Below are positions 18,835 to 57,440 of a DNA stretch of 64,000 bases, one piece after another (the stretch's first letter is position 1; the number at the start of each line of letters is the position of its first letter). Source of the stretch: Myripristis murdjan (lineage: Eukaryota). The stretch is from contig NC_043996.1 of assembly GCF_902150065.1 (NCBI RefSeq), positions 24,924,745 to 24,988,744 on the forward strand, given 5' to 3'. A model generated the notes under the pieces. It was not told the DNA's origin. It did not search any database and was given only the letters and a program-made list of their open reading frames with translations. The position numbers and the translations under genes are program-made.

Positions 18835-19135
18835 GTAAGCACGTTGAGGCTGAAATGACGTTTAAATGCATGAGTCTTTTCAAGGATGCAAGCATTAGAT
18901 GTCAATACACCAATCCACCACTAGTATACACAAAGTATGTTTGTCAGAATCTATTTTACCATGCAGAGTTGCATTTTTTGGAACTGGTAACCTACAGATA
19001 ATGCATCAATGTACCTTAAATGACCAACTAATACATACAAACAACAGAAAATATAGCTCCAGGTTTCATACATTTTAAGGAGAAAAAAGCAGTAATGTGT
19101 GTGTGTGTGCTATCTATCTTGTCTGATTTCTAAAG

Positions 19136-19296
19136 GATGAGTATAGAAGACTTCTGTAACTTCTTCAGAGATCTTGACATCTGCTCTCTGAGCCCCAGTT
19201 TCCTTGACGGGAACTCCTCTTGCCGTTGGAGGGCTTCCCTCCAGGACGGCCGGTGGGTCGCAAGCATCACTGCTGGAGGATGCCTGAATGATCCCG
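19136..19296 (+). CDS. calpain exon 9
   Basis: taaag|G ATG..CCCG|gtatgt; MSIEDFCNFFRDLDICSLSP...ASITAGGCLNDP. Confidence 0.8.
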
Positions 19297-20124
19297 GTAT
19301 GTACCTGTGTTTGGTCTTTGATTTGAATGAAGTCAAACAAAAGCTGATGAATTCATTGGGCTGTTGAAGTACATTTGTTGCACTTTCATTCCGTGTGTTG
19401 GAAAACACATGGATTTCTTGTTGTTAAGCAAGAATCTGATGATCTCAGCATCACTCAGGAGATCAGTGTAGACAGATCTGGTGATAGTTGACTCTTTTCC
19501 AGTTAGTAAACCAGCAGCACTCCTTCTGCTTCCCAGAAGATGGTGGCCATCGCCTGGCCTATCGACATTGTCTTGTCTTGGCTTTCGTGTTTCCTCTGCT
19601 TCCTGCTGCTTTTGTCTCTCGTTGGAAGTGATGGTCTCATCCACAGGCAGAAATCAGCAGAAAAAACTCTTGGGATTCACTTAAAAAATGAATAGAGCCT
19701 TGTTGGCCTGGTGGTGCTGCTGTGGAGGGCCAATCAGGAGGAAATCAAAAGGCATTTCAACCCTGGTGTTAAAATCCATCAATCATACAAACTTTGGTCA
19801 AAACAAGCCAGTAGAAGATGAGATATCGAACGTAACAAATGGACAAGAGACCAATCCGTAGTCATTTCAGCTATCTTTAAAAGTGGGAAAATTATTACTT
19901 GAACTGAAAAACTAATGTGGTAGGTTAGTAGTTACCACAAAAAATATTATGGGTACATGATTATTACCCTAAAATGTTTCTTTGTAATGCCGTACTCCCA
20001 GCACTGCAGCTACACACCAGTGAGCGAGCAATGTCTATATAATTTCTGGATAACAAAGTCATTCTAACTTTCAAAAATTCAGATACTTATGTCCTGATGC
20101 TGCTATTCCTTCTTTACTTTACAG

Positions 20125-20291
20125 ACAGCTTCTGGATAAATCCACAGTATCGGGTCAAGGTTGTAGATTCACATGATGAGTGTGCTGAGAAACAGGAGGG
20201 AGTCAGCTTCCTGGTGTCTCTCATGCAAAAGCCTGACAAGAGAAACAGACGCCTTGTCACAAATCTGTACATTGGCTTCTACATATTTGAG
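20125..20291 (+). CDS. calpain exon 10 (domain III)
   Basis: ttacag|AC..GAG|gtaaat; DSFWINPQYRVKVVDSHDE...LYIGFYIFE. Confidence 0.8.
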
Positions 20292-20723
20292 GTAAATGTT
20301 ACCCCAGTTGCTGCCCCACAGTGCGCTTGTTAGATGGTTCAAAATCACACGTTTAGGTTTCATTTGGTGCCAAATGAACCAAAGTACAAGAGGAGACACA
20401 GTAATAATATGTTACTGAAGTAATAATAAACGAGTCTGGTCTGCATTTTGACTGGTTATCTGTATCAATGATGTTACTCCATTTTAAAATCTGCTACATT
20501 CTGATTGAATAAGGATTTGAACTAATTGCTATTTCTTCTCATTTCCCTTCCATTTCCTCCAAGGTGACTGAGCAAGTAAGTAACAATTTTAAACAAAACC
20601 TTTGTAGCAATTGATTTTTGTTGCACATTTTACACAATAGCCTACACAGTCTTCAACTTTATTTGGCAGCTAGGATGATGGATATTCAGAGCACTGGAAT
20701 AAGATCTCCACTTGCTTTTACAG

Positions 20724-20927
20724 TACAAGTCGGTGAAAGGGAAGTTCCCTGCCTCTTTCTTCAAAACGCACATGCCTGTCGTCAAACCTGAGTTCTACAA
20801 GAATGCACGCGAGGTCATGAAGTTCACAAAACTGAAGCCTGGTGAATACCTGATTGTGCCGTCCACCCACAAACCCAATGAGACGGCCTCCTTCATCCTG
20901 TCCATCCTCTCCACAGCAGAGATCCAT
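20724..20927 (+). CDS. calpain exon 11 (domain III)
   Basis: tttacag|TAC..CAT|gtctag (weak donor); YKSVKGKF...LKPGEYLIVPSTHKPNETASFILSILSTAEIH; an in-frame TAG follows if the donor is not used. Confidence 0.65.
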
Positions 20928-21315
20928 GTCTAGTAAGCAGTCTGTCCACCCACTGCATGTAAGAAGGTTATTAGTGTATAAAGAGGTGGCAGAAATCAAA
21001 CAGACAGGAGGAGCCTGAATCTGAAGTGACATATATGAATTGTTTTCCATTTTCCACACATTTTGTTTGAGAGAAGAAAAAAGAAATCACTCAAAATCCA
21101 AGTGTAATCTTTTGTCTTTCCCTTCAGTGAGACTTCTGGTGACTTTATGGAAATTGCAAAGGTGTGCAAGATTTCAAATACTGCATTATTGTTCTTGCTG
21201 ATAATATTGTGATATTGTACTTTTCGTCAACTGTTATTGCCAGTTTGGCCTTAAAGACGTGCATTGGATATTAGATGGGACAGAAAGGGTTCAATCTCTC
21301 TTCTTTTCATTTGTA

Positions 21316-28567: not shown

Positions 28568-28727
28568 TCACCACAGTGACGAGTAGTTGAACCGGATCCG
28601 CAGCAGGTACCTCATGCGGGTCTGGGCGGGGTTGTAGACTATGTACTCGTTGTAGAGAAGCGAGTAGCCGCCGGCTTTCCCCACGCCCGTCTTCACCGAG
28701 GGTCCCATCGGCACCGTCGCCCCGTCT
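28568..28727 (-). CDS. parp2: parp2 terminal exon with TGA stop
   Basis: (TC)n tract + ttag|A GAC; LDGATVPMGPSVKTGVGKAGGYSLLYNEYIVYNPAQTRMRYLLRIRFNYSSLW* (human ...NYNEYIVYNPNQVRMRYLLKVQFNFLQLW*). Confidence 0.9.
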
Positions 28728-28735
28728 CTAACAGC

Positions 28736-28838
<103 letters not shown>

Positions 28839-29761
28839 GAGAAATCAGAGTGATGGAAATGAGAACTGATTTTGTACAAATCAGACCAAAAAGTACATCT
28901 GACTTTGATCTCAGGGCTGTGGCTCTACATGAAATACACGTTTCATGGCCCTATGACTCTTGTCTAGTAAAACACTCTAGCTTTTCTTGGAGGTCTATAA
29001 AGGAGAAGCAGCACAGAGGAAGGGAAGGAAGAGCAAAATAAGAACGACACAAGGTCAGTCCATTAGGATATGAGTCACTGAAGAGGAACTTGAATTCAGC
29101 ACTTAGTACTTTGATTTGATCGAAGTGTTGTGACCCCAAATTGCACCGTGTCAGAATAAAAGACACTGACATTTCTGCGGGGTTGTGGGAAAACGGCTGC
29201 AGACGAACAGATCTACATAATCAGCAGAAACATGGGGCTAGGTAAGATTAAGAGCGGAAGACAGACACAGTGACGAGGCACATTTAACTAAGTGGTGCTC
29301 AAACAAAACACTCAAAAGGTCACAGAGGATGGCAGGAAAGTGCGGCAGACACAATAACAGCGCATGCATAGCTTTGTGAAACGCAGACAGAAACACCTCG
29401 GAGACGTCCTCAACGCTCAATTTGTGCCAGTGCATTTCCGGTGTAATCACAAAAATATAGATATATTTTCTGTTCGTATTCCCTTTCAGAAACAAGATAA
29501 TGTTAGAAATATGTTTTGGCAGATTGGTAATAGCTGCTATAACAAGAATTATTTTAAGCTGGTGGTCTACGTTCAATACATTTCATTATCTTATATTCCA
29601 TTTTTATTCAACTTCTTTAGAGCATTATTTATTATTTGTTCATCAACGTGCAATGGCTAAATTTACCCTGAGGTTATTAAGTTCATTTTTAGAAACAGAC
29701 AGGTTATATAATGACTGTTGTTTGTGTAATGGAGGAAAACAGTAGAATGAGAGAGACTGAC

Positions 29762-29886
29762 AGGGTGACAGAGTTCGTGGGATCAGGTCCAGTCTGTCCC
29801 AGGCCCTTGGTGCTGTGTTTCCCAGCAGGCAGCTTGTTGGCCTCGTAGTCGGCGTCCAGCAGCTCGTTACAGTCTCCCAGCGCGAC
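29762..29886 (-). CDS. parp2: parp2 exon 16 (catalytic)
   Basis: tttgcag|GTC..CCCT|gtcagt; VALGDCNELLDADYEANKLPAGKHSTKGLGQTGPDPTNSVT. Confidence 0.85.
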
Positions 29887-30844
29887 CTGCAAACACACAC
29901 ATCAGCGTGGAGATTTGAGCAGCTGACGGAGATGCAGTGAAATTTGTCTTTGGTAGAAAGATTGCAAAGGGTCGTCCATCACACACTGGCTTGTTATTTT
30001 TTTTGAGACAGCAAAATTTGACCGACTTCTGTTGTCAAACTTTGTCCCAGCTGGCCACCGTACACTCTCTCTGACCACGAGCAGCTCAAATTAATGAAAA
30101 ACATCTATAAATCAGGCTATTAAAGCACAGAGTTAGACCCCGCTGGAGGGAATGTGGAGAAATCATGGTTAATCGTGCTCACATCTTCTGGACTTGACCC
30201 TAAATTCAGACTTTCTGAAAGGAACTAGCAACAATCATCTAAAAAAGATGATATCTACCTCTTAAAAATCTTGCTGGCAGCGACTAAAAAGGCCACAGAA
30301 AAATCATCTCACTGTTGACTGCTGTATCAATACTGTTAAACACCCACATCTTTTTAGAAAAAATGACCTTCTCCATATGACACCAACCAGAAATGGGAGA
30401 AAAACGGTGGGAAAACCAAGTGTTAGTTTTGCCAACGAGACAGATTTTCCATGATTATTGCATGTGCCATGTGTGAGACTTCACTTTAAATTAAGCAAAT
30501 CAGCCTTGATTTACTGATCGTGGCCTCCTGTTTGTTTTGTTTCTTGTCATTGGTTTGTTTTTTGAGAAATGTTCATAAATGAAAAAGTTTGCGGCAGTTT
30601 TGTCCAAACACGTACAGCACAAGGCAGCAAATCCACAGATATCAGCCGTCCAAAGTAATAAATAAAAATCTCAAAACAGTCAGGTGTGCTCACTAGGACA
30701 TACAACTCAAAAAGGAAGAAGAACCTGCAGGCATTCAATTACTGTTTTTTTTCTGTCTCTGATGTGCTTTGGTGTAGATTTGCATAATAAATGTTAAACT
30801 GTTAAAGTACAAAATGATCAAAATATTTTTTTAGTTTCACCCAC

Positions 30845-30943
30845 CTCACTCAGTAGCAGCAGCCCCACGTTGCTGCGCTGGTTGGCAAAACAGTAGTTGG
30901 CGCTCTTTGACGACATGTCAGCAAAGTAGATGCCTTTACCAAA
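30845..30943 (-). CDS. parp2: parp2 exon 15 (catalytic)
   Basis: tgtccag|TTT..GAG|gtgggt; [33 protein letters not shown]. Confidence 0.9.
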
Positions 30944-31329
30944 CTGGACAAGAGACAAACAGGGAGCTCAGCACAACGCGCTTCATCACAAAAATGCTGG
31001 AAAAAAAAATTCATCACCCAGTTTTTGGAAATATAGGTTTTGATACTAAAAATGTTAATGTTTTGGGAGGAAAATGCTTAGTACGGCCAATAACTGGTTT
31101 TACAAAGCAAATGTTTTACTTTTGAGCAGCCGTTTCAAAAAGTTACTCCAGTACATGTAAAACTCCTCTCTTCCCCCAAACTCATTTGTTCTCCATCTCT
31201 CCAATCCCCTCCAGGATTGATGAATTAAACGACAGATTGAGTGATTGGGTAAAAAAAAAAGAAAGAGTGAAAATAAACAATAAATGAATCAAGAGCAGGT
31301 GTAAGTGTGTCTCTGTTCATCCATCCTAC

Positions 31330-31429
31330 CATGTACCCAGTGACGGGGGCTTCTGGTGGGGCGACCCTGAGCCCCTGGCTGAGGATGCCAACCCAGTTAG
31401 ACAGGCGGGAACCATGCCACAACAGCATC
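31330..31429 (-). CDS. parp2: parp2 exon 14 (catalytic, H-G-S NAD+ site)
   Basis: (CA)n in intron then catcag|G ATG..ATG|gtagga; [34 protein letters not shown]. Confidence 0.9.
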
Positions 31430-31437
31430 CTGATGGA

Positions 31438-31438
<1 letters not shown>

Positions 31439-31478
<40 letters not shown>
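31439..31478. repeat. (CA)n microsatellite in a parp2 intron, adjacent to the exon 14 acceptor
   Basis: acacac x20. Confidence 0.9.
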
Positions 31479-31480
<2 letters not shown>

Positions 31481-31687
31481 TTACATGGAGTGTGCAAAGG
31501 GGAGTTCATCATCAGCGTCACAAATTCAGTGACACCAATCAAATTAGAGTGTAGCTTTTTCGAGACAAATATGAAAGTAGCTCAGGTTTCAGTGGCATCT
31601 GAGACAACAAAACCAGTTTCACACACACACACACACACTGAAACATGACAACCATTTGCATAAACAGCAGCTGTATTCAGATATTAC

Positions 31688-31815
31688 CTGTTGTGCATCT
31701 GTGACAGGAAGTTGTCCCTCTCCCCCGCCCTGTCCACCGAGAAGATGTCCAGCACAGTCATGGTGTAATCTCTGTGAGTCGTGGCGTGAGTGGACTGCAG
31801 GTACTTCTCTATCAC
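31688..31815 (-). CDS. parp2: parp2 exon 13 (catalytic domain start)
   Basis: tgtgaag|GTG (AAG acceptor)..AACAG|gtaata; VIEKYLQSTHATTHRDYTMTVLDIFSVDRAGERDNFLSQMHN. Confidence 0.75.
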
Positions 31816-33373: not shown

Positions 33374-33508
33374 CGTGTATTCGTGGCTGTTGGGGTCCAG
33401 AGGCTGCAGCTGGCAGCGGAGGGAGCTGTACTGTCGGTCCAGCGGATGCTCGTCACTGTCCTCTCTGGACTGGGCCATCTTCACCGCTATCTGGATGTCA
33501 CTCAGAGC
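33374..33508 (-). CDS. parp2: parp2 exon 12
   Basis: ccctcag|GCT..ACG|gtcagt; ALSDIQIAVKMAQSREDSDEHPLDRQYSSLRCQLQPLDPNSHEYT. Confidence 0.85.
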
Positions 33509-33829
33509 CTGAGGGAGGGAAGAGAAACAGTAGATTACCCTGGATTATGTACTGTGTTACAGGTGAATGGGTTAAAAGAACTGGTAGATTACTTTACATT
33601 GGACAGGCAGTAACTCAATATTGTCATCTGTGATACATAATTATGTCTAAATTGATGATAACTGGCACATTTTATTTAAAAACTCAAATAAAATGAGGTA
33701 TTTGACCATTTAATGTGATTTTGCTTGAGTAAGCCATATAATAATACATAAAAATCATAAGAACATAAATAATTTAATGCACCAAGCTGAAAAGACTTGT
33801 ATATCTCAAATAAAGTAGAGTTCCTCTAC

Positions 33830-33893
33830 CTCCAGCAGGGCGATTTTTTCCTTCAGCTCATCTTCTGTGCGGATGATGGGAGGAGTTTTTAAC
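33830..33893 (-). CDS. parp2: parp2 exon 11
   Basis: ttccag|G TTA..GAG|gtagag; LKTPPIIRTEDELKEKIALLE. Confidence 0.85.
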
Positions 33894-34061
33894 CTGGAAA
33901 ATCAGATCCCAACGTTACATTACTAACTCGTCAAGATCCCAGCTAATGTGAGACACTCTGAGAGTCATCGTATTAAACATTATCTCCTACATCAGTTCTG
34001 TAATTTCAGGGCCTCGTCAGTGTTAGCGTGTTCCCTAACTACTGAGTTGCACATTTCTTAC

Positions 34062-34200
34062 CCAAAGTCATGTGGGATTCGTGTGTAGAACTGGTTGCAC
34101 GCGTCCAGCAACTCGCGATTGCTGCCCTTCTTCTTCAGACACGCCTCGATCCTCTGCAGCGCCATGTAGCCTGCACGGATCTGCTCGGACGTCAGCTTGC
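34062..34200 (-). CDS. parp2: parp2 exon 10 (regulatory domain)
   Basis: ctgcag|GC..TTTGG|gtaaga; GKLTSEQIRAGYMALQRIEACLKKKGSNRELLDACNQFYTRIPHDFG. Confidence 0.9.
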
Positions 34201-34695
34201 CTGCAGACAGACGGAGGAAAACCAAACTGAGCCAGTGATACTAACACATTCACAAACAGCACCAGTCAGAAAGACAATAAAAAAAACAATAAAAAGGGTA
34301 TCTTTAAATCTGGAAATTACTGTGTATAAAATAAATTGAATTGTTTGAATAAATTGTCTCATGTTCAGAGTGTACAGTGGTCAGCAGAGAGAGGCACTGT
34401 GTACAGCTGAATCATTCAAAACGTACTAACTCTGAAAGTGATCGGTGCGTCAGGTGATCTTTTCTGATTTAGATCAATTCTATAAATATTAATAACAGGT
34501 TCATAACAGGTAATATTCAGGTGTATATGTGGATTCATATGTACAATGACCACAGGATGTCTTATGATGCTTCTTTCCTCGGTGTGTGAGGTCCTGCTGC
34601 TGCACACTGTGCCCCGATGAACTGACAAACTGTACGTTTTCAATATTTCTCTGGAACAATATTTCCTGTAATGACTCCGATTCAGACAAACTGAC

Positions 34696-34849
34696 CGAGA
34701 GGAGCTTTACGTGTGTCGAACTTCATCTCCAGCACACACTCCTCCATGGCCTTCAGGTCACAGATGAGCTCCAGGAGAGACTGGACCTTCATGTCCAGCT
34801 TTGAGGGCTTCTTCTTGGGCACAGCGTCCACCACAGTCTGGCTCTCCTC
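34696..34849 (-). CDS. parp2: parp2 exon 9 (PARP regulatory helical domain)
   Basis: tttccag|GAG..CTCG|gtcagt; EESQTVVDAVPKKKPSKLDMKVQSLLELICDLKAMEECVLEMKFDTRKAPL. Confidence 0.85.
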
Positions 34850-34996: not shown

Positions 34997-35099
34997 CTTT
35001 CCATTGGCGCTGTAGTCCATCAGCACCATGTCATATTTTCCAGCCACTTTCTCAAAGTTAGCCCGCTGTTCCCACTCGTTCTTGGTCTTGTCAAGGAAC
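34997..35099 (-). CDS. parp2: parp2 exon 8 (WGR end)
   Basis: cctcag|G TTC..AAG|gcaagc (GC donor); FLDKTKNEWEQRANFEKVAGKYDMVLMDYSANGK. Confidence 0.75.
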
Positions 35100-35193
35100 C
35101 TGAGGCGAAAACAAACCAGCCCATTTCAGAGTTTCACAAAACCCACTTCCACGCGGGACATCTGAAACTCATTTTCCAATTATTCAATCTCAC

Positions 35194-35269
35194 TTTTTCT
35201 TGAAGACGTCTTTGGCTTTCAGCAGGTCTCCGCCACAGCCTGTCAAGCTGTTCTGGCCCACTTTACCCA
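35194..35269 (-). CDS. parp2: parp2 exon 7 (WGR)
   Basis: ctgcag|TG..AAAAA|gtgaga; VGKVGQNSLTGCGGDLLKAKDVFKKK. Confidence 0.85.
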
Positions 35270-35500
35270 CTGCAGAGACAAAATAAAAAAACAAAAAACA
35301 TCACTGCAGGGTTAAAATATCACCAACAGGACAGGAAACTCCCACCACTGTTTCTCCAAAGTACACAGTTAGATTTTACCAGAATTTTTTGGGCTGCTGT
35401 TCATTTCCAAACCAAACTAAGACACAGAGTTTTCAGCGATCAAGCGCATGAACTTCTCTTCGTTCCACCTGCATCAGCGTGTAAAACGTGTAAAACCCAC

Positions 35501-35597
35501 CTCTGCCCCATCTCATCCACACACTGTAGGCCTTCGAGTTGTCGTCCTCCAGCAGCTGGATCAAGTAGTACTTGTTGTTGTTGAACTGAAGATTTGT
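35501..35597 (-). CDS. parp2: parp2 exon 6 (WGR)
   Basis: ttgcag|ACA..AGAG|gtgggt; TNLQFNNNKYYLIQLLEDDNSKAYSVWMRWGR. Confidence 0.9.
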
Positions 35598-36090
35598 CTG
35601 CAAAAAAAAGCCGCAGAAAATGTTTACTGCAGAGTTCACTCCAGCACAGTTACTGTTCCCTCAGTTCAAAAAGGAAAACTGACACAATTATGATAGAGGC
35701 TTCACTCAATAACTTCCTTTTTAAAGACTGATAGTAAGAAATAAATATTAGGTTTGTACTGTCAGCTGTGTATTATCTGATGTCACAATTTAGTTTAAAT
35801 TCACTTTTCATATGAGCAATACTGAAACGTTTCATTTCATTTACAGTCTGAAAACTGTCAAGATAACTGCTGGTGAAAATAACTACAGTTAAGTTATTTC
35901 ATCAATATATGATGAATACTCAGAGCTACAATATCGCCCAGATTTTCATCCCATCAGACGAGCCTATATACCGCAAAACATTACAGCTTCTGAATTTTGA
36001 ATGATATGTACTGTACTGGGTAAATGAATACTTCTCAGCCGTCAGATCCATTTGATTCAGTCCATTATTTTATTTTTTAAAAATTATTAC

Positions 36091-36141
36091 CTGGTTTAGC
36101 ATCACGTCATACACGTCGCTTCCTTCGCTGTAAACGTGGGC
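36091..36141 (-). CDS. parp2: parp2 exon 5 (WGR domain start)
   Basis: catgcag|GCC..CAG|gtaata; AHVYSEGSDVYDVMLNQ (human AHVYCEGNDVYDVMLNQ). Confidence 0.9.
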
Positions 36142-36761
36142 CTGCATGGACGAGAGAGGAAACATACCATGAATAAAGCTGAGATCATTCGTAACAAAAG
36201 AAAACAAAAAACAAAACTTTTTCTGACAACTTCTCATGTCTTTTCTGTACTTTGGCTTGTACATGCTCTTTTTTTTTTAGCCTAAACTTTTTCTTTTACC
36301 TAGACAGACCTCATAAATAAACATTATATGTTCAAAATCACCAGGAAGAGAGAACATCATTGAGCAAAAAAATGACATTATAGGACAACAGAAAAACTGT
36401 AGGATTATAAATTTTAAAAATTAAATTAAATTTAAAAAAGGCAGTCAAATGTTATTTTCTGTGTTAACTTTGTATTTCACTAAATACAAAATAACTGAAT
36501 CGAGTCAGTATCTAAATCAACCAAGACAAGCTACTAAAGAATGAGCCTTTCTCTTCTCTTATAATAGCAATAATGAGGATTTAGCATGGCATCTCCTGTA
36601 GTTATTCACTATTTGATATTTTTAAGATAAACTCATGGTATGGATATACTTTCAGTTTTACCCATCCACCTCGCACATCTTTATTATGTGAAATTTAAAA
36701 GTTGAAGGAATATTTTTCAAATCTATTTACTGGTGATTTTTGTTCTTCTAATTGTCTAAAG

Positions 36762-37160
36762 CAGTGATTCTCAAAGAGGGACACGCGTACCCCCTAGTGG
36801 TATATTGGAGTACTGCCGGGGGTACATGGGATTTTTTTCAACATTAATTTAATATTTTTAAGTCATGCATAATTCATAAAATAATTAGCTTACGCTGAAA
36901 TAAGTTTGATTATAAATGAAAATGTCAGTTTGTCTTCGGTATTCCCTCCTCGGGTTTGACGAAGGTGTTGTTGTGGTTTAAATGGTTTAAATTAAAGACG
37001 TTTGTTCACTATGACCAGGAAGCCAGACAAAAACTGAGAAAATGGATTTGTGGTTTCAAGGAGAAAGAAGAGAAGAAGACGCCGAAACAGAGCCGACAAA
37101 ATATCGTCAGTATCAGGTTGTTGTTTCAGACGTTGAAAAAAATTTGAGAACCACTGCTCT
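36762..37160. mobile_element. MITE with ~20-bp TIRs (CTAAAGCAGTGRTTCTCAAA), in parp2 intron 4
   Basis: 5' end CTAAAGCAGTGATTCTCAAAGAGGGACACGCGTACCCCCTAGTGG; 3' end TTTGAGAACCACTGCTCTAAAGCG is its reverse complement. Confidence 0.65.
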
Positions 37161-37267
37161 AAAGCGTAACTTAAATTAATTTGTGTTTGATTCAAGACCA
37201 AAAATAAAGCAGTGACACACGGTTGAATCATAACTCATGAATGTGAAGCTCTCTGCAGACACTTTAC

Positions 37268-37338
37268 CTTTCCAAGTTTGGCTTTGCACTCAGAGTCCAC
37301 CGGAGCTTTGCCCTTCATCACCACCGTCTTCACGACCT
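37268..37338 (-). CDS. parp2: parp2 exon 4
   Basis: tgcacag|AG..AAG|gtaaag; EVVKTVVMKGKAPVDSECKAKLGK (human VKALLLKGKAPVDPECTAKVGK). Confidence 0.85.
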
Positions 37339-37530: not shown

Positions 37531-37692
37531 CTTTACTTTCCATTTCTTCTTTGGGTGCCTCTTTAGTTTTTGTCTGTCTTTTGCTCTGCCCCCTCTTCCT
37601 CTTAGCAGCCGGCTGCTCCTCCTCTTCCTCTTTAACTTGAACTGGACTCTCATCTTCACGTGATGGGTCACCGCTTCCATTCAAACCTGGAT
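37531..37692 (-). CDS. parp2: parp2 exon 3 (acidic/basic linker, KRKR NLS-like)
   Basis: tandem acceptors ccag|ATCCAG|GT (37692 or 37686), donor AAAG|gtgtgt; DPDPGLNGSGDPSREDESPVQVKEEEEEQPAAKRKRGQSKRQTKTKEAPKEEMESK. Confidence 0.7.
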
Positions 37693-38032
37693 CTGGATCG
37701 AAAAGAGTCAAAAGTAAATAAAATAAAATAAAATAAAATAAAGTAAAATAAAAGACAAAATAAAATAAAATATTGACTACTTTACTTTCAATAAGCTTTT
37801 TAATTAGCAAAGAAAATAATAATAATGATAATAATAATAATAATTATAATAATAATTTAATGTTTAGGTGATAAAAATGTGGATATGAAAATAGTTCACC
37901 TTAAAAAAAAAGTAATAAAATAAATAATAATAATAATAATAACAGTTATAATTGTTGTTATTATTATTAGTAGTAGTAGTAGTGGTAATATTAATATTAT
38001 GTTTGTGAAGCCCCACATCCACCTGTTTTTAC

Positions 38033-38233
38033 TGTCTGACAGCGGATTTTCCTCTGGTATTTGGTGACAGGGTTCTTCTGGACCATCTTCTTCAGGTCGA
38101 TGACGTACGAGGCTCCTGAGCTCAGCGTCACGGTGACGGACGATTTCCCCGTGGAGACGGCCGAGTCCAACGAGGTGCAGGCCGATGGAGAGAACGGCTC
38201 CCACTGGCCCTCGTCTCCCTGCCACTGCCACAC
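38033..38233 (-). CDS. parp2: parp2 exon 2: WWE domain (WQWQGDEGQWEPF...GKSSVTVTLSSGASYVIDLKKMVQKNPVTKYQRKIRCQ)
   Basis: (TC)n polypyrimidine + cag acceptor at 38233 and AG|gtaaaa donor at 38033; 201 nt, symmetric phase 1-1, no stops; matches the WWE consensus of RNF146/PARP11-14 (WxW..G.W..Y ... GKSSVSLSL ... Y.IDF..M.Q.N..T...R.IRR). Confidence 0.7.
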
Positions 38234-38236
38234 TGA

Positions 38237-38253
38237 GGGGGGAGGGGGAGAGG

Positions 38254-38288
<35 letters not shown>

Positions 38289-38302
38289 GGAGAGGGAGAG
38301 AC
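38237..38302. repeat. G/A-rich (GA)n/(GGGA)n tract; on the minus strand it is a polypyrimidine tract feeding the WWE-exon acceptor
   Basis: gggggagggggagagggagagagagagag... Confidence 0.9.
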
Positions 38303-39719: not shown

Positions 39720-39795
39720 CCTGTTTTTGACGGCACATCTCCGCTCTCTACCGCACTCTCTGCTTTACTCCTCGACCCTCTTGTTCGCCGCATCA
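39720..39795 (-). CDS. parp2: poly(ADP-ribose) polymerase 2, exon 1 with ATG (basic N-terminus MMRRTRGSRSKAESAVESGDVPSKT)
   Basis: ATG at 39793-39795 (minus); donor ACAG|gtcggt, phase 1; upstream is GC-rich promoter-like sequence. Confidence 0.7.
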
Positions 39796-41200
39796 TGTAA
39801 ACAAAACAACAAACAAAAGTAAAAAAGACAAGGAAGTGACCAGGAAGAGGCGGGAAACTGTCCCGGCAGCTTCTGTCAAGCGGCGCCACTAAAGATCGTC
39901 TATTGACCTGATGGCTCACTCGACGGCTAAAAATGTTGACCATCACGTTGACCCTCACGCATGCCGTTACCATAGCAACCAATCTGGTACAGACCTTAAA
40001 TAAGGCGCCTTGATTTAAAAAAAGAAAGAAAGGAAGAAAGAAGGAAAAAGAAACAAGCAAACAAACATGCTCAGTAGTTTGTGTTTATGTGTAATTTTGT
40101 CCACATACTTTCCCCCCTTTATTTGTGTAAATTCAAGTCAACTACATGAAGTAAACATGTTACATACACCAGAAAGGTTCCTATTCATATACCTCAGCAT
40201 AAAAATGATAAAAAAATAAATAAATAAAAATGAGTTACAATGAACAATAAACTGCAAAATCTATGGAAAAGAGAAGAAGAAAGAAAGAAAGAAAGAAAGA
40301 AAAAGAAAGAAAGAAAACAAATTAGGGTCTGCTAACTGGACTAAATTTGAAATGTCATAGTAATCTCACAGTTTTTGCCAATTTGTGATTTCTAAGTTTT
40401 AAATTTTCAGTTGTGCATAGGCAGAGTTTGAAATTTGCGCTGGGGGGGGCAAACATTTTTTTTTATTATTATTTTATTTATTACAATACCAAACATAATG
40501 TAATTCAAATTTATTTCTGAAAATAATCTTATTTTATTGCATTGCTTAAATGTTTATAGATATGTATACAGGAAAAAAAAAATATTGGACCTATTTTTGA
40601 CTCAGTGTAGTGACACATTTCAGACGCTAGGGGGGGCAATGCCCCCCCCCGCAAACTCCGCCTATGCAGTTGTGGTCAAACGTGTTTTAAAATCAGAATC
40701 TTGAAAAACATAAAAGGAGTACTTTATATGTTTCTTGCTAAATCATATCATGGATATAATATATAGCTAAAACAATAAACATCTGCCGAAAGAAACGGGA
40801 TTGTCAAACATGATCAAAATATTTAGCCGTGTCAGCATTAAATCTTCCGTAAATTCTGTGAATCAAACCAAAAAGAAGCACTAGGAGACCAACCTACACA
40901 AACGTGTTCAATGAAATGTTGCTTTAACAGGATAGTCCCTCGCCTACATACTGTGACGATATCACTCCGCAACATCAGCGCATCAGTCTGGTTCGACGGG
41001 ACCCGGAAACAGAGGCGGAGTGAGCGCTCTTCACTTCATTAGGTGGAACAGAACTTTTTTTTTTTAACGAAGGTTCCGTCTTGTCTGGAGGTCGGAGTTA
41101 TTTTGTTGGAGGACCAGTTGAAGCCCAGCGTGCGGGGTTGGAAGTTGTGCGGGCTGAGCGGCGGGTGTTCCAGCTGTTTTAACGCAAGAAATCAGGAGAT
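39796..41200. promoter_or_regulatory. divergent (bidirectional) promoter region between parp2 (-) and mettl17 (+)
   Basis: The two start codons are 1.4 kb apart in head-to-head orientation; GC-rich segments 39540-39700 and 40930-41200; inference from gene arrangement only. Confidence 0.4.
40403..40680. mobile_element. inverted-repeat (MITE-like) element in the parp2/mettl17 intergenic region
   Basis: CAGTTGTGCATAGGCAGAGTTTGAAATTTGCGCTGGGGGGGGC at the 5' end vs GGGGGGGGCAATGCCCCCCCCCGCAAACTCCGCCTATGCAGTTGTGG at the 3' end (reverse complements over ~35 bp); AT-rich interior. Confidence 0.5.
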
Positions 41201-47830: not shown

Positions 47831-48840
47831 ACCTCACAACTACAACCTACTGAGACTCATCATTTGTTAGCAAACTAGAACATCTGCATTTATTGACAAA
47901 GAGCCAGCACACTGTCCACTTTAAGTACGCCTCGTCCTAGATTTCCTTACTTGAATGTTGTCTAAACCAAAACCCGTGAAGTGTCGTCGTGATACTTTGT
48001 CAGATGTATTTTGTGGACAGAGCAGTTGCTTGGTAAAACGCTGACTAACCTGTTATCTGATGTGTGACTGTAAAGAATACTACAGTAAAAAAATAAAATA
48101 TCCTGTCCAGCCAATAAGCAAGTGCCACATTCTGCACTTCACCCACTTTTATTGTACACCACTTTCAATAAATCATATTCCATATCAAACATCCTGGACC
48201 ATTCTGTGAAGATAAATCTGACGTTTGAAAAGTCCTAAGATGGAAGTTAAGTCATTTCCTCACATTACTGCACTTCACATTAACATTTAAAGATCACGTC
48301 CCATTCATGAGCACCACCGATTGGTCTGATATTGGTCTGACTATCATTGCAACCTGCAACTGATACCAGCATCCCACTATGAGCCTTCACTGTGGTGCAT
48401 ATGCTGATCAATATTGCAGGAACCTTTTAAAAAATGTTCACCAACAGTTTGTTGCAGAAGTGTGTTGAAGGAACTGAGGGAAGCCATATCCAGACTGTCA
48501 CGGAGGGCCAGAGATGTCCCGTTGTGTTTGTTGAGGCTCTAATAGTGCAGATGATGTTATCTGCACCTTCCAGCACATCCCACCTACTGCAGTCAGCAGG
48601 AATAAACACTGGAGGAACAAACGAAGGCTAGAGCAGAAAACAGCTGAATCTACACTCCAACACTTAGTCCTGTGTCAGAAAATAAATCATTTTGAATTAT
48701 ATAGAAAATCCTTGCAAGCTGTCATCAGATTTGAAAACTATGAGATTTCTGCATGATCATGTTTTATGAGTTTACGTCGCTGTTTGGTTATGGTTAAGTT
48801 GTAATTATTACAGGATCCTCTCTATATCTCTCCTGATCCA

Positions 48841-49271
48841 TTAACTCCCAACAATCTCCCTCAGGGCTGAGGTCAAGTCCGGGTACTTGTACTGAAACCC
48901 GGACTCTAGAGTCCTCTTGGGTTTGACTTTCTGGCCCTGGGTCAGGACCACGGCCCTCTCGGAGCCCATCAGCGCGTTCATGACGAAGCCCGGCACAGGG
49001 AAGATGGTGGGCCGCCGCAGCACCCGGCCCAGTTCTTTAGTGAACTCGTAGTTGGTGTTGAGAGCAGGAGCGACTCCGTTGAAGACCTGGGGCACGGCGG
49101 GCGGTGATGTGTCGGTGGGGGGCTCCAGGGCGTGGGCGATGATTCCTGCCAGGTCCGCGACGTGGATCCAGGGGAACGGCTGTCTCCCGGACCCCAGGGT
49201 GCCGCCAAGGCCGAGCCAGAAGGGCAGCAGCATTTGCTTCATGGCACCACCATCACGACCCAGCACTGCCC
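48841..49271 (-). CDS. sdr39u1: sdr39u1 terminal exon with stop
   Basis: caccag|GG..; GAVLGRDGGAMKQMLLPFWLGLGGTLGSGRQPFPWIHVADLAGII...GQKVKPKRTLESGFQYKYPDLTSALREIVGS*. Confidence 0.85.
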
Positions 49272-49552
49272 CTGGTGGACAGAGGGAGAAAAATAGGAAC
49301 TGTCAGGTTGTACACAGAAACACAGCTCTCAGTATCACCATCAAAATACTGCAAGACCAACACAACTTATACTTAAAATGCACATAATTTGTGTGAAACT
49401 TAAGGCAAGATTATTTGGTAAAAATTAACCCCATTTTTTGCAGCAAAAATTGCAATATCTGACTGAATACCAAAATTCTGACATGCAAGTTTTCCCTGTG
49501 TAACCTGAGGTAAACAGTGTATTTAGACTTCATTAGCTCGTTTTGCACAAAC

Positions 49553-49705
49553 CGGGCCTGATGACGACTTGCTTGGTGGTCTTTGCTACACTCTCAGGAA
49601 GACACGCCGCTGCCTCCCACTCCTTCACAAGTCTTGACAGGAGATCAAATGGTGTCCATGAACTATCCTCTGTGTACTCAGCTTCAAGACTGGGCTTGTA
49701 GCATG
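49553..49705 (-). CDS. sdr39u1: sdr39u1 exon 5
   Basis: caacag|CA..CCCG|gtttgt; ACYKPSLEAEYTEDSSWTPFDLLSRLVKEWEAAACLPESVAKTTKQVVIRP. Confidence 0.8.
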
Positions 49706-49998
49706 CTGTTGGATCCAAAAGCAATGGTTTTGTCGCATGACGTAAGTACAGCACCGTAAAACTGAAACCAAACTTGTCTATAGAGAGCGTGCAGAGGATT
49801 TGCATTTAGCGAAAATATGGAGACGATGTTTCGTATGGCTACAAATACCGCCACAGTCTACACTTTCAGATATCAGCCCAAGTGAGCAGCTAATTATCAG
49901 AAACTCCATTCACACACTACACTGGCTCTAAGCTTTATCTTTATTTTATTTAGCAGCAATTTGGGATTGACAACCTGATCATTTTGACGGACACGTAC

Positions 49999-50120
49999 CT
50001 ACACCTGTCACCAACACCCAGGAGTGAGGGGGACTCGGGGAGGCAGCGATGGCTTGAGCAAGAGTCTTTGTGGTGTCGATGCGACTGGAAAACAAATCCT
50101 TCTTATAGCTCTCGTTCCAC
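49999..50120 (-). CDS. sdr39u1: sdr39u1 exon 4
   Basis: tttcag|G TGG..GTAG|gtacgt; WWNESYKKDLFSSRIDTTKTLAQAIAASPSPPHSWVLVTGV. Confidence 0.8.
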
Positions 50121-50422
50121 CTGAAACAAACAAGAAACAGACAGGTTTTAATTAAACATGGCTGAGAGGGAGGTCCAGGCAGCACACAAAGCCTGGCCCA
50201 ATACACAAAAAGCTCATTTATTCTGTACAGACACTGTAAACAGTTTATCCACCCTTTAGCCGGCATAATGTAAATTTTCACAGTTTATCCAAACAGCAGT
50301 CCAAATGCTAACCATTTGTGTGGGATGTATTGAGAAATTCTGAGCCATGACTGAGTGAGGAAAGTATTCAATGACTTGTGCAACCGTGTTTGGTTGTAAT
50401 GCGGGCTCTGTTTGTTGCTCAC

Positions 50423-50505
50423 CATCTCAACGGGTTCATGAGATTCTCTCCAGCCAAGTTGACAGCGCCTTCACATGGAGGAAGGCCTCTGGACTCCAAC
50501 TCACC
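50423..50505 (-). CDS. sdr39u1: sdr39u1 exon 3
   Basis: ttgcag|GGT..AGATG|gtgagc; GELESRGLPPCEGAVNLAGENLMNPLR. Confidence 0.8.
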
Positions 50506-51118
50506 CTGCAAGGCACAGAGGAGGAAATCCCGTAAATCAGTAATCAGCAATGTGAACACTGTAGGTGCCATTCACAATAACTATACAGGGGTTTGTACAT
50601 TGGTTTTGTATTTGAAGACATGATATAAAATTGGGCAAAATACTCAACGGGGTTAAAACCAGAAGACATACAACATAGGGGTGTAAAGGTTCAATAAACA
50701 GTTTGATTTTACACCCCTGATAAAAACAAAAAACAAAACAAAAACGAGATGGAACAAATAGACTTGCAGGGCCATGCAGACTAGCAATAATAAAATGGCA
50801 CTGGCAATGTGTCTCTCGACTATGGGCGACTATTTTTTCAGCCCCTCTTGCTGTTTAGAGCTCTCATGGACTTAGGAATAAATGACTTTGTATTGTTTCC
50901 ATGCAAACTCATTTATTCCCTCCCAGCTGTAAAAAACATACACACTGATCCATGTTACAAATCCACCAGCAGCTCACATACAGTACAAATACATTCACCT
51001 CAGTCTGTCACTGTGGTGTGGTGAGTGCCATCTCTTGCTCTGGTGAATAAGAATTACCAGGATGACAGCATGCATGATTGCTGATTCTGTATTTTAAATC
51101 AATCTGTGACCACCTTAC

Positions 51119-51225
51119 CCATGTTATCTTCCCTGGACCAGGCTGCCGGGATATTACTGTGACTTCATGGCCTCTGTCCCGGAGCAGGCGAGTCAGCTCA
51201 CGACCAACAAACCCAGATCCACCTC
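51119..51225 (-). CDS. sdr39u1: sdr39u1 exon 2 (NAD-binding GxGxxG)
   Basis: ttgaag|GA..TGG|gtaagg; GGGSGFVGRELTRLLRDRGHEVTVISRQPGPGKITW. Confidence 0.8.
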
Positions 51226-51759
51226 CTTCAAGGAACAAATAAAGAGGAAATACACAGAGAAATTGAAGGGGAAAACTTAAGAAAAGAAACATTGATGCAT
51301 ACAGTTACCAGGTTAGCTACTGTTGACTAACATGAGAAAAAAAGCTGCTTATGTGTATGAACTCTGACATCACTTATATGAAATGCTGATAATAAAAAAA
51401 AAAATACATGTAAACAAAACAATCAGAAGGCAGGACTTACTACACTGCTGACAGCCCAACGCGCATGCGTACAAGACATGCTTACAAAACTGCACTTTTA
51501 CCACTTTGGCATCATTTTCGTCAACATGACATTTGAATAAGAATGAAACGGTGCGAAAGTCATGGACCAACACGCACCACGCTAGTGTCCCGCTGTGTTT
51601 TCCAGAAAAACAAACTAATAACGCGGATAAAAACACTTGCGGCGCTGCGAAGCTAACACTAGCTAACGTTAGCTGGTCGCATTATGTCACATTGACCTTT
51701 TCTGTTTAATGTAGACGCTGAAATTCTTCTTAAAAACAAATAAATAAATAAAGTCACGT

Positions 51760-55639: not shown

Positions 55640-55800
55640 TCTTTTTGATAGTGACAGTAGAGCGAGACAGGAAAGGTAGGTGAGAGGAAGAAGGGAGGAC
55701 ATGGAGCAAAGGGTCCAATCCGGATTTGAACACAGGCCGCTGCGGTAAGGACTCAGCCTTGATTCGTGGTACACGCTCTACCACGTGAGCCGCCGCACCA
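55640..55800 (-). mobile_element. tRNA-derived SINE (teleost-type), about 50 bp downstream of the ltb4r stop codon, same orientation
   Basis: Minus strand reads GGCTCACGTGGTAGAGCGTGTACCACGAATCAAGGCTGAGTCCTTACCGCAGCGGCCTGTGTTCAAATCCGGATTGGACCC (A/B-box and GTTCRAATCC T-loop-like) followed by a CT-rich body ..CTTCTTCCTCTCACCTACCTTTCCTGTCTCGCTCTACTGTCACTATC. Confidence 0.6.
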
Positions 55801-55849
55801 CCACTCCACATCTTATTTCTCCCATCTTCAGTCTGAACTGCTCATAGAA

Positions 55850-56123
55850 AGCTCATTGTCCATCGTGTATAACGGTCTTTCCAGTGCTAGCCGTGGACTC
55901 CATGTCTCTGAGTCCCACTTGAGTGTCCGAGGCCAGTGACCGGCCCTTTCTGGTCCCAGTTTGGTCCAATGATGTGCCCTCAAAGAGCCGCGCCATGAAG
56001 GCAAAGCCGTTCTGCTTGATGTAGGATTTCCCGGCGAAGGTGTAAAGGACGGGATTGGCACAGCTGCTGATGAAGGCCAGAGCTGAGGTCACTGCACGAC
56101 TGGACTTCCAGATGTGATCCAAT
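55850..56123 (-). CDS. ltb4r: ltb4r-like GPCR terminal coding exon (TM7 NPVLY + C-tail)
   Basis: ctctgcag|A TTG..; LDHIWKSSRAVTSALAFISSCANPVLYTFAGKSYIKQNGFAFMARLFEGTSLDQTGTRKGRSL...DGQ*. Confidence 0.8.
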
Positions 56124-57237
56124 CTGCAGAGAGACAAAAAAGGGTGAAGAGGACATCTCGGTCAACAGCAGACACACCGAATGACTGGAGTTTTGTACTA
56201 ATTCATGAAACACAAAGTCTGAGTCCAGTGACATCCCTGAGGGCTTAACTGAAAGGTTTTGCTCTGAAGGTACAGGAAATAAAACTGTTGTCTTCTGAAT
56301 TTACATCTTTCAGAATATCAGCATGGGAGATGCTCCAGAACAACCAGGGGAGATACATGGATTTCCATAAAAATTTATTTTCCAAAGACAAAATACACTT
56401 CCCATGCAACAGGCAATATTATATCAGTCATCTGGGAAAAATAACTCCCTATCATGGAGTGCTGGAAACTATTAAGTGGAAGTTTACACTTCTAATGTAA
56501 GTGTTTTACATTTACCCCACAAGTGTTTTGATAGATTTTAAGGTCATGCATCGAGAATTGTGAATTAAACATGTTAAATAAACGTTGTGGAGGGCCTATG
56601 ATCTTCTTGGAAACCCAAAATGTTTCACTTGATACTCCAACACATTTCCTCCGAGCTGTCCAAACTTATCAACAACAGTCTATTTATTATGACCGAATAG
56701 GCTTCCACTGCTTTTGATCTTGTCCCTGATATTCAAAGTTTTACTTTTCACTGTTACTGTTGAGACTTTTTAATGCTGTTATTGTATATCTGTGGAAGTC
56801 TTAAATTTCCCGTTGAAGACCTTTGGACGAAAAAAAAAAAAACTAATCCGTGAGAAGGGGTTGGAAAATGACGCCATTGCATTTGGGGGAAGGAAGACAG
56901 AATTTTTGGCTTTTGGATATTTCTTAAACACAAAACCTGCCTTTTAATGCTTCTACTGGCTTGTACTGTAGCGTTATTGCTTGTTTTGTATATGCCAACA
57001 GTATTCTCAGTGATAATGCCAAAATATTATGAAAGAGTGAAAAGCTACAAGACCTAAAAAGACAAAGCTGGACTGTCAGTAGTTAAAGTTGCAACTTACT
57101 TGTCCCTCATTACTGATTCCTCTGAGAACCACTCAGCCGCCACCTGGAAGGACCAACATATTCTCAGCATTCAATCAAACGACTGGATCATTCATTGACG
57201 TTACATGATAAATGAGACGGCAAATATGCAATCACAC

Positions 57238-57440
57238 ACCTGTACCATGTTGATGACATGGTAGGGCAGCCAGAACACGCCAAAGGTCACCACAATAGCC
57301 AGGATGAGTTTCTCACTGCGGACCTTGCGTTTGAACTTGGTCTGCCTCAAGCGTCTCAGAATGAGGACGTAGCTGGTCACGATCACGGCGTAGGGGAGTA
57401 TGAATCCAGCCACGGTCTCAAGGGAGTACTGGAACCTCAC
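57238..57440 (-). CDS. ltb4r: ltb4r-like GPCR coding exon 2 (TM5-TM6)
   Basis: tgtgcag|GTG..CAGGT|gtgtga; VRFQYSLETVAGFILPYAVIVTSYVLILRRLRQTKFKRKVRSEKLILAIVVTFGVFWLPYHVINMVQ. Confidence 0.75.

What the first reader, a model, noticed from the sequence alone, without database searches (positions are those of the whole stretch)
38033..38233. PARP2 orthologue carries an in-frame WWE (iso-ADP-ribose/PAR-binding) domain exon that mammalian PARP2 lacks
There is a 201-nt exon between parp2 exon 1 (basic N-terminus) and the basic/acidic linker exon. It has a textbook (TC)n+CAG acceptor and an AG|GTAAAA donor. It encodes VWQWQGDEGQWEPFSPSACTSLDSAVSTGKSSVTVTLSSGASYVIDLKKMVQKNPVTKYQRKIRCQT. This fits the WWE-domain signature of RNF146 and PARP7/11/12/13/14 (WxW, GxW..Y/F, GKSSVxLxL, Y.ID..M.Q.N..T..R.IRR). 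Exon 1 ends in phase 1, this exon is phase 1-1, and exon 3 starts in phase 1. With it, the 17 exons sum to 1941 nt, giving 646 aa against 583 aa for human PARP2. A PARP1/2-type polymerase with WGR, regulatory and catalytic domains fused to a PAR-reader domain would couple PAR binding to PAR synthesis (feed-forward recruitment). I cannot recall this being described for vertebrate PARP2, whose N-terminal region is usually reported as disordered.
Basis: partly seen in the sequence, partly recalled or inferred. Interest (0 to 1): 0.75.

Follow-up and report, generated by a model that had tools for sequence, protein, structure and literature searches.

The report
Fish PARP2 WWE exon: real, already known
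The exon is real and does give this fish's PARP2 DNA-repair enzyme a WWE domain that human PARP2 lacks, but this is an old, widespread feature of non-therian animal PARP2 that was published in 2014 and is already in database annotation.

Summary
A minus-strand coding exon of parp2 encodes a WWE domain (Pfam PF02825, E = 2e-18; predicted structure matches the HUWE1 WWE–ADP-ribose complex, TM 0.90). It lies in frame between the basic exon 1 and the linker exon.

The boundaries were misread. The exon is 38232..38023 (210 nt, phase 1-1), not 38233..38033 (201 nt). The stated "AG|GTAAAA" donor is not in the sequence; the donor used is CAG|GTGGAT. The CDS is 1950 nt (649 aa), not 1941 nt (646 aa).

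An RNA-seq contig from a relative that is 87% identical maps onto all 17 exons and reads through both junctions.

The claim of novelty fails:
- The window is Myripristis murdjan (99% to UniProt A0A668ATM8).
- All 120 best hits, almost all from teleosts and mostly annotated PARP2, carry WWE+WGR+PARP_reg+PARP.
- Frog, turtle, coelacanth, ray, platypus, oyster, snail, nematode and sponge PARP2 carry WWE, usually two.
- Perina et al. 2014 state that WWE domain(s) sit at the N-terminus of PARP2 in bird, frog and fish.

Teleosts seem to keep only the second of an ancestral pair. Human lacks it, and platypus has it.

The ligand-contact residues are HUWE1/TRIP12-like rather than RNF146-like. This suggests ADP-ribose/PAR binding without iso-ADP-ribose specificity, which is untested.

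The parts
38023..38232 (-). parp2 exon 2: 210 nt, phase 1-1, encodes the whole WWE domain (protein residues 26-95; Pfam WWE 26-89)
   Evidence: Translation. Pfam PF02825 E = 2.3e-18. Only frame-keeping splice solution. Same-species model P0007. Transcript contig L001 block 38235-38023. AF2 pLDDT 88.9, Foldseek top hit HUWE1 WWE.
38233..38302 (-). Acceptor of exon 2: AG at 38234-38233, preceded by a long (TC)n/pyrimidine tract
   Evidence: Sequence read directly. Acceptor chosen.
38021..38022 (-). Donor GT of exon 2 (CAG|GTGGAT).
39721..39796 (-). parp2 exon 1: start codon and basic N-terminus MMRRTRGSRSKAESAVESGDVPSKT, ends in phase 1
   Evidence: L001 block ends at 39721.
37531..37692 (-). 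parp2 exon 3: acidic/basic linker with an NLS-like AAKRKRGQSKRQTK. There is a tandem acceptor (37692 or 37686), and both keep the frame
   Evidence: P0007 uses 37692. This stretch aligns to human PARP2 residues ~50-90.
34997..37338 (-). parp2 exons 4-8 (37338-37268, 36141-36091, 35597-35501, 35269-35194, 35099-34997): WGR domain (residues 184-263). The exon 8 donor is GC (AAG|GCAAGC)
   Evidence: L001 block ends.
33374..34849 (-). parp2 exons 9-12 (34849-34696, 34200-34062, 33893-33830, 33508-33374): PARP regulatory/helical domain (residues 298-428)
28568..31815 (-). parp2 exons 13-17 (31815-31688, 31429-31330, 30943-30845, 29886-29762, 28727-28568 including the stop): catalytic ART domain (residues 442-643), with the motifs that hold the H-Y-E catalytic residues conserved
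   Evidence: Alignment to human PARP2 6x0l. H494, Y528 and E624 are invariant.

Best explanation
This is exon 2 of the parp2 gene of a soldierfish (Myripristis murdjan). Orthologue annotation and a relative's mRNA suggest it is constitutive. It encodes one complete WWE domain inserted between the short basic N-terminus (exon 1) and the NLS-bearing flexible linker (exon 3). The linker leads into the WGR, regulatory and catalytic domains.

It is not a fish novelty. It is the surviving member, most likely the second, of a tandem WWE pair that seems ancestral to animal PARP2. Human PARP2 lacks the domain; platypus, a monotreme, keeps both. Because the exon is symmetric (phase 1-1), losing it leaves the reading frame intact.

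Shown here: the exon, its splice sites, its presence in a spliced mRNA of a close relative, the fold, conservation of the ligand-contact residues, and the taxonomic spread.

Inferred: the domain binds the ADP-ribose/ADP moiety of poly(ADP-ribose) in the manner of the HUWE1 and TRIP12 WWE domains. A Trp would stack on the adenine, a Gln would hydrogen-bond it, and Tyr, Asn and Arg would hold the proximal phosphate. Tethered by a linker of roughly 90 residues, it would help bring or hold PARP2 at sites already PARylated, mainly by PARP1. That would supplement DNA-break sensing by the WGR domain. In human PARP2 this kind of role is reported for the disordered N-terminal region and for partner proteins.
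For: Exon and splicing. The same-species model P0007 reads across the junction. The 2,531-nt RNA-seq contig L001 has one continuous ORF with WWE+WGR+PARP_reg+PARP. It maps to the window in 17 blocks whose ends match the model, up to the few bases that adjacent blastn blocks overlap at junctions.

Domain identity: PF02825 E = 2.3e-18 alone and 5.2e-17 in the full protein, which also has WGR, PARP_reg and PARP. AF2 pLDDT is 88.9 with a b-b-a-b-b-b-b layout. The Foldseek top hit is HUWE1 WWE-ADPr 6pfl (TM 0.90, rmsd 1.3 A), followed by TRIP12, RNF146 and DTX1.

Orthology: best solved match is human PARP2 6x0l (E = 4.7e-232) against PARP1 (3e-135). The 120 best hits, almost all from teleosts and mostly annotated PARP2, all carry the four domains.

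Ancient origin: WWE(s)+WGR+PRD+CAT is found in frogs, turtle, coelacanth, ray, platypus, oyster, snail, tick, nematodes and sponge. Matches spanning WWE to WGR also occur in diplonemids. Perina 2014 states it for bird, frog and fish.

Ligand site: HUWE1 contacts Trp1619, Tyr1658, Gln1667, Asn1669 and Arg1676 (PMC11269756) align to W29, Y68, Q77, N79 and R86. All five are invariant in 9 teleosts.

WWE2 assignment: shared VWQW, W-x-P-Y, the helix Cys and the Tyr.
Against: No binding or recruitment experiment on any WWE-bearing PARP2 was found in the searchable literature, so ligand binding is inferred from conserved residues only.

Some WWE domains bind PAR weakly. TRIP12 has a Kd of 13 uM for an 11-mer despite a conserved pocket, so conserved contacts do not guarantee affinity.

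Inclusion is inferred from a relative's transcript and from annotation.

The WWE2 assignment rests on a few diagnostic positions in a ~65-residue domain. Raw BLAST scores favour WWE1 for frog (Leptobrachium), ray, oyster, snail and sponge, and WWE2 for coelacanth and turtle.
Confidence: 0.85

Rival explanations
1. The WWE is an RNF146-type reader specific for iso-ADP-ribose, the internal unit of PAR, as the finding's title implies.
For: It is a true WWE. The shared core contacts (RNF146 W114, Y144, Q153, R163) align to W36, Y68, Q77 and R86. RNF146 3v3l is a structural match (TM 0.85).
Against: RNF146 Tyr107, which bonds the distal ribose, is Trp29 here. Arg110, which holds the distal phosphate, is Asp32. 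These are the changes that PMC11269756 uses to explain weak iso-ADPr binding by HUWE1 and TRIP12 and their recognition of the terminal ADP moiety. RNF146 is a weaker sequence match (5.7e-4) than DTX1, TRIP12 or HUWE1.
Confidence: 0.15
2. The domain is a degenerate or purely protein-binding WWE that no longer binds ADP-ribose. It might work as an interaction or autoregulatory module.
For: No experiment exists. WWE domains were first proposed as protein-protein interaction modules (as cited). In the tandem forms, WWE1 lacks the phosphate-binding Tyr, so non-binding copies plausibly occur in this protein family.
Against: All five HUWE1 ligand contacts are present and invariant across teleosts. 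The model superposes on ligand-bound HUWE1 at 1.3 A.
Confidence: 0.2
3. The exon is a rarely included cassette or an annotation artefact, and the main parp2 mRNA skips it (39721 joined to 37692 stays in frame, giving 579 aa).
For: The exon is symmetric, so skipping is frame-neutral. Therians manage without it.
Against: A relative's mRNA contig includes it. All 120 best hits, including the listed isoforms, contain PF02825. There is strong purifying selection on the domain and good splice signals.
Confidence: 0.03
4. The WWE-PARP2 fusion is a new, undescribed, fish-specific gain.
For: It is absent from human PARP2, and reviews centred on human PARPs do not mention it.
Against: It is present from sponge to platypus. 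It was published in 2014 and is annotated in all 120 best hits, almost all from teleosts.
Confidence: 0.02

Closest known systems
PARP2 homologues of non-mammalian metazoans with N-terminal WWE domain(s) (Perina et al. 2014, DNA Repair 23:4, PMC4245714; NCBI/UniProt teleost 'poly [ADP-ribose] polymerase 2')
   Same: Same gene family and the same architecture (WWE-linker-WGR-PRD-CAT). This window is one of them, 99% identical to UniProt A0A668ATM8.
   Different: Nothing essential. Teleosts have one WWE, whereas frog, turtle, coelacanth, ray, platypus, oyster and sponge have two.
WWE domains of the E3 ligases HUWE1, TRIP12 and DTX1 (PDB 6pfl, 9bkr, 8r5n)
   Same: Closest in sequence (E = 1e-11 to 7e-5) and in fold (TM 0.84-0.90). 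They share the adenine-stacking Trp, the Gln, and the Tyr/Asn/Arg phosphate contacts, with acidic residues in the b1-b2 loop.
   Different: Here the domain is attached to a PAR polymerase rather than a ubiquitin ligase. Binding has not been measured.
RNF146 WWE (PDB 3v3l), the iso-ADP-ribose reader
   Same: WWE fold and the core Gln, Tyr, Arg and Trp contacts.
   Different: The iso-ADPr-specific residues Tyr107 and Arg110 are Trp and Asp here. It is a weaker sequence match.
Human PARP2 N-terminal region (Chen et al. 2018, PMC6089979; Lin et al. 2022, PMC9023293)
   Same: An N-terminal element ahead of the WGR that binds PAR and links existing PAR to PARP2 activity or recruitment. The flanking basic N-terminus and the PAKK/AAKRKR linker are homologous.
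   Different: The human region is disordered and has no WWE. It is dispensable for PAR-dependent foci.
WWE-bearing mono-ADP-ribosyltransferases PARP7, 11, 12, 13 and 14
   Same: WWE and an ART domain in one polypeptide.
   Different: They belong to a different PARP clade, with no WGR or helical regulatory domain. Their WWE domains are more distant (PARP11 E = 0.13; TM 0.64-0.76).

Membership tests
WWE domain (Pfam PF02825) | Profile score above the curated gathering threshold | tested here: met
   66.8 bits against a cutoff of 21.1, E = 2.3e-18, covering profile positions 2-66 of 67. 62.4 bits in the full protein.
WWE domain (Pfam PF02825) | Half-beta-barrel of six strands with one helix | tested here: met
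   AF2 pLDDT 88.9, elements E-E-H-E-E-E-E. The top 24 Foldseek PDB hits are all WWE domains, best TM 0.90.
WWE domain (Pfam PF02825) | Conserved Trp, Trp and Glu residues | tested here: met
   W27/W29, W36 and E37 are invariant in 9 teleost PARP2 sequences.
ADP-ribose/PAR-binding WWE (HUWE1/TRIP12/DTX type) | Adenine-stacking Trp, adenine-bonding Gln, and Tyr/Asn/Arg at the proximal phosphate (HUWE1 W1619, Q1667, Y1658, N1669, R1676) | tested here: met
   They align to W29, Q77, Y68, N79 and R86 (residues named in PMC11269756). All are invariant.
ADP-ribose/PAR-binding WWE (HUWE1/TRIP12/DTX type) | Measured binding of ADPr or PAR | not testable with these tools
   No experiment was found in the literature searches.
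iso-ADP-ribose-specific WWE (RNF146 type) | Tyr107 hydroxyl to the distal ribose, and a basic loop (Arg110) around the distal phosphate | tested here: not met
   Tyr107 aligns to Trp29 and Arg110 to Asp32. The significance is explained in PMC11269756.
PARP2 orthologue (clade 1 DNA-dependent PARP) | WGR + helical regulatory domain + ART catalytic domain, without zinc fingers or BRCT | tested here: met
   PF05406, PF02877 and PF00644 all score far above their cutoffs, and there are no other domains besides WWE.
PARP2 orthologue (clade 1 DNA-dependent PARP) | Closer to PARP2 than to PARP1 or PARP3 | tested here: met
   Human PARP2 E = 4.7e-232, PARP1 3.2e-135, PARP3 3.7e-57. The best database hits are annotated PARP2.
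PARP2 orthologue (clade 1 DNA-dependent PARP) | H-Y-E catalytic triad | tested here: met
   The motifs LLWHGSR, GIYFAD and YNEYIVY are identical to human PARP2 in the alignment. H494, Y528 and E624 are invariant.
PARP2 orthologue (clade 1 DNA-dependent PARP) | Poly(ADP-ribosyl)ation activity stimulated by DNA breaks | not testable with these tools
   Inferred from conservation only.

The most novel reading that the evidence does not exclude
In non-therian animals the PARP2 WWE domain may be the direct sensor that recruits or activates PARP2 on PAR made by PARP1. In human cells that step is attributed to the disordered N-terminus, to XRCC1, or to a domain not yet identified. On this reading, the loss of the WWE exons in therians rewired PARP2 recruitment. 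I found no experimental test of this in the searchable literature. Teleosts, which keep only the copy with a complete ligand pocket, would be the simplest system for testing it.
Probability: 0.4. Interest if true: 0.45.

Novelty: already known. Interest (0 to 1): 0.15.

Why it matters
As a discovery it adds little. The WWE-PARP2 architecture was published in 2014 and is standard in database annotation for fish.

Some value remains:
- It is a reminder that the 'disordered N-terminus' picture of PARP2 is specific to therians. The ancestral animal enzyme carried one or two folded reader domains.
- No functional test of that domain was found, although how PARP2 is recruited by PAR is still debated for the human enzyme.
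- The residue pattern predicts HUWE1-like binding rather than RNF146-like binding, and that prediction can be tested.

Tried and rejected
I used the relative's contig L001 instead.
2. The first homology search, with the N-terminal 173 aa, returned only 6 fragments. This briefly made the exon look rare. The full-length query corrected that.
3. A profile search with the tandem WWE region, meant to list tetrapod and shark PARP2, returned mostly unnamed short fragments and did not help with dating.
4. I searched intron 1 and the rest of the window for a relic of a second WWE. Only the one locus at 38233-38039 matched.
5. An Rfam scan for an RNase P RNA gene head-to-head with parp2, as I recall for human RPPH1/PARP2, found nothing above threshold in the window.
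6. Citarelli 2010 and Suskiewicz 2023 were checked for a WWE in clade 1 or PARP2 and neither mentions it. The 2021 NAR review and the 2026 fungal PARP paper were also uninformative.
8. I first assigned the teleost WWE to WWE1 from BLAST scores. I revised this to WWE2 on the diagnostic positions, and it remains only moderately supported.

Full report
**1. What is in the sequence**

The boundaries, however, were misread.
- Position 38233 is the G of the acceptor AG, which follows a long (TC)n/pyrimidine tract, so the exon starts at 38232.
- At the proposed donor the sequence is ACA|GTAAAA, not AG|GTAAAA. No acceptor of the next exon restores the frame from there.
- A systematic search of GT/GC-AG pairs that keep the frame open leaves CAG|GTGGAT, which ends the exon at 38023.
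- Exon 2 is therefore 38232..38023: 210 nt, 70 codons (VWQWQ...CQTVKT), phase 1-1.
- Exon 1 (39796-39721) ends ACA G|gt in phase 1.
- Exon 3 starts at 37692, or at a tandem acceptor 6 nt downstream at 37686.

The 17 exons sum to 1950 nt including the stop, giving 649 aa. Skipping exon 2 would stay in frame (579 aa).

**2. Is it real and expressed**

Pfam gives WWE (PF02825) at E = 2.3e-18 for the exon alone. The full conceptual protein has WWE 26-89, WGR 184-263, PARP_reg 298-428 and PARP 442-643.

The best database hit is UniProt A0A668ATM8 of Myripristis murdjan at 99% identity, so that is the source species. That model reads ...CQTVKTDPGLNGSG... across the exon 2/3 junction.

A 2,531-nt Logan contig from run SRR28040493 (L001) comes from a relative that is 87% identical. 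It carries one uninterrupted ORF with all four domains. It maps onto the window in 17 blocks whose ends match my exon ends, up to the few bases that adjacent blastn blocks overlap at junctions (...39721 | 38235-38023 | 37686-37531 ...). It reads SKT|VWQWQ and CQTVKA|ESLNGSG. This is cross-species transcript evidence for inclusion and for the GC-AG intron after exon 8.

**3. Fold and ligand site**

An AlphaFold2 model of the 70 residues is confident (pLDDT 88.9) with a b-b-a-b-b-b-b layout. The 24 best Foldseek PDB hits are all WWE domains, in this order:
- HUWE1 WWE-ADP-ribose (6pfl, TM 0.90, rmsd 1.3 A)
- TRIP12, RNF146 and DTX1
- PARP13, PARP14 and PARP11, which match less well

Sequence comparison gives a similar ranking, led by the E3-ligase WWE domains: DTX1 1e-11, TRIP12 5e-6, HUWE1 7e-5, RNF146 6e-4, PARP11 0.13.

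PMC11269756 names the HUWE1 contacts as Trp1619 (stacks on adenine), Gln1667 (bonds adenine), and Tyr1658, Asn1669 and Arg1676 (proximal phosphate). In the HMMER alignment these correspond to W29, Q77, Y68, N79 and R86. All five are invariant in nine teleost PARP2 sequences.

The two features that give RNF146 its iso-ADP-ribose specificity are Tyr107 and the basic loop with Arg110. Here they are Trp29 and Asp32, the same changes seen in HUWE1 and TRIP12. That paper concludes those two domains recognise the terminal ADP moiety instead.

So the inference is a HUWE1-like ADP-ribose/PAR binder rather than an iso-ADP-ribose-specific one. This is inference only. TRIP12 shows that a conserved pocket can still mean weak PAR binding.

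**4. Distribution**

All 120 best hits to the full-length protein carry PF02825 together with WGR, PARP_reg and PARP. Almost all are from teleosts, and most are annotated 'poly [ADP-ribose] polymerase 2'.

I searched 1.84 billion cluster representatives with the WWE-linker-WGR part, then ran Pfam scans and cluster-name look-ups. The Pfam scans show the same architecture, mostly with two WWE domains, in:
- a frog (Leptobrachium)
- an electric ray (Narcine)
- platypus (XP_028933514.1)
- oyster and a snail
- nematodes and a sponge

BLAST of the teleost WWE also finds two WWE copies in another frog (Ascaphus), a turtle and coelacanth. Matches spanning WWE to WGR occur in a third frog (Engystomops), a tick and two diplonemid protists.

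Human PARP2 (6x0l) aligns only from residue 107 of the fish protein. It keeps the basic N-terminus and the PAKK/AAKRKR linker but has nothing in between. The domain is therefore ancestral in animals. It is missing from human PARP2 but not from all mammals, since platypus keeps it.

The window contains only one WWE locus and no relic of a second. At diagnostic positions the teleost domain groups with WWE2 of the tandem forms: N-terminal VWQW, W-x-P-Y, a Cys in the helix, and the phosphate-binding Tyr. WWE1 usually has Leu or Gln in place of that Tyr. Teleosts therefore seem to have kept the copy with the complete pocket. This assignment is moderately supported at best, because raw scores are mixed.

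**5. Literature**

Citarelli 2010 and the human-centred Suskiewicz 2023 do not mention it. No paper in the searchable library reports an experiment on this domain.

The feed-forward idea is not new either:
- Chen et al. 2018 report that the human PARP2 N-terminal region binds PAR and is needed for PAR-stimulated, branched PAR synthesis.
- Lin et al. 2022 show that most PARP2 recruitment depends on PARP1 and PAR, yet does not need that N-terminal region.

**6. Mechanism**

Shown: a folded WWE domain is built into fish PARP2 and attached to the WGR by a linker of about 90 residues that carries an NLS-like motif. Human PARP2 residues ~50-90 align to this stretch, and that region is described as unstructured in human PARP2.

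Inferred: the domain binds ADP-ribose units of PAR and concentrates or retains PARP2 at sites that are already PARylated. This would add to WGR-mediated sensing of 5'-phosphorylated nicks.

Rivals:
- an RNF146-like iso-ADPr reader (about 0.15)
- a non-binding or protein-binding WWE (about 0.2)
- a rarely used cassette exon (about 0.03)
- a new fish-specific gain (refuted)

**7. Verdict**

The feature is already known. What remains open is the function of the domain, which has not been tested.

Noticed in passing
P0130 (platypus XP_028933514.1); Platypus PARP2 carries two WWE domains ahead of the WGR, whereas human PARP2 has none. The loss is therefore not shared by all mammals and probably happened in the therian lineage.
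   Followed up: partly
Alignment (P0128, P0130, P0137, P0205, P0312, P0314 and others): In tandem-WWE PARP2 proteins the first WWE usually has Leu or Gln where the phosphate-contacting Tyr sits, while the second keeps it. The single teleost WWE resembles the second copy.
   Followed up: partly
window 34997 (exon 8 donor), minus strand: The intron after exon 8 uses a GC donor (AAG|GCAAGC). This is supported by conservation of ...SANGK|EES... in orthologues and by the block ends of transcript L001.
   Followed up: yes
window 37686-37692, minus strand: Exon 3 has a tandem acceptor (tccag|atccag|) 6 nt apart, and both sites keep the frame (649 or 647 aa). The same-species database model uses 37692, but the relative's transcript aligns only from 37686.
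   Followed up: partly
P0007 (UniProt A0A668ATM8) compared with window 39721-39796 and 37531-37537: The public model for this species lacks exon 1 and starts inside intron 1 (FIFDKVL...). It also uses an alternative donor 6 nt upstream in exon 3 (EEME-KVV instead of EEMESKEVV).
   Followed up: partly
P0001 (Pungitius pungitius LOC134105232); window 55800-60800, minus strand: A stickleback gene model fuses the parp2 WWE, linker and WGR-start exons to the C-terminal part of a rhodopsin-family GPCR. A similar 7tm_1 GPCR gene lies about 16-21 kb upstream of parp2 in this window (PF00001 E = 5e-32), so the model looks like a chimera of neighbouring genes.
   Followed up: partly
window ~13800-21000 (+) and ~48800-51300 (-): Neighbouring genes: a calpain (Peptidase_C2 E = 1e-19, Calpain_III E = 2e-13) downstream of parp2, and an epimerase-family gene with DUF1731 (SDR39U1-like) upstream.
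   Followed up: partly
whole window; No Rfam family reaches its gathering score anywhere in the 64 kb. In particular there is no RNase P RNA gene next to the parp2 5' end, unlike the human RPPH1/PARP2 arrangement as I recall it.
   Followed up: yes
P0219 and P0236 (diplonemid transcriptomes); Two proteins from diplonemid protists match the query from the WWE through the WGR, so the fusion may predate animals or may have arisen more than once.
   Followed up: no
window 28693-28840 and 38235-38302, minus strand: Long (TC)n/(CT)n microsatellite-like tracts lie just upstream of the acceptors of both exon 2 and the last exon, where they double as polypyrimidine tracts.
   Followed up: no
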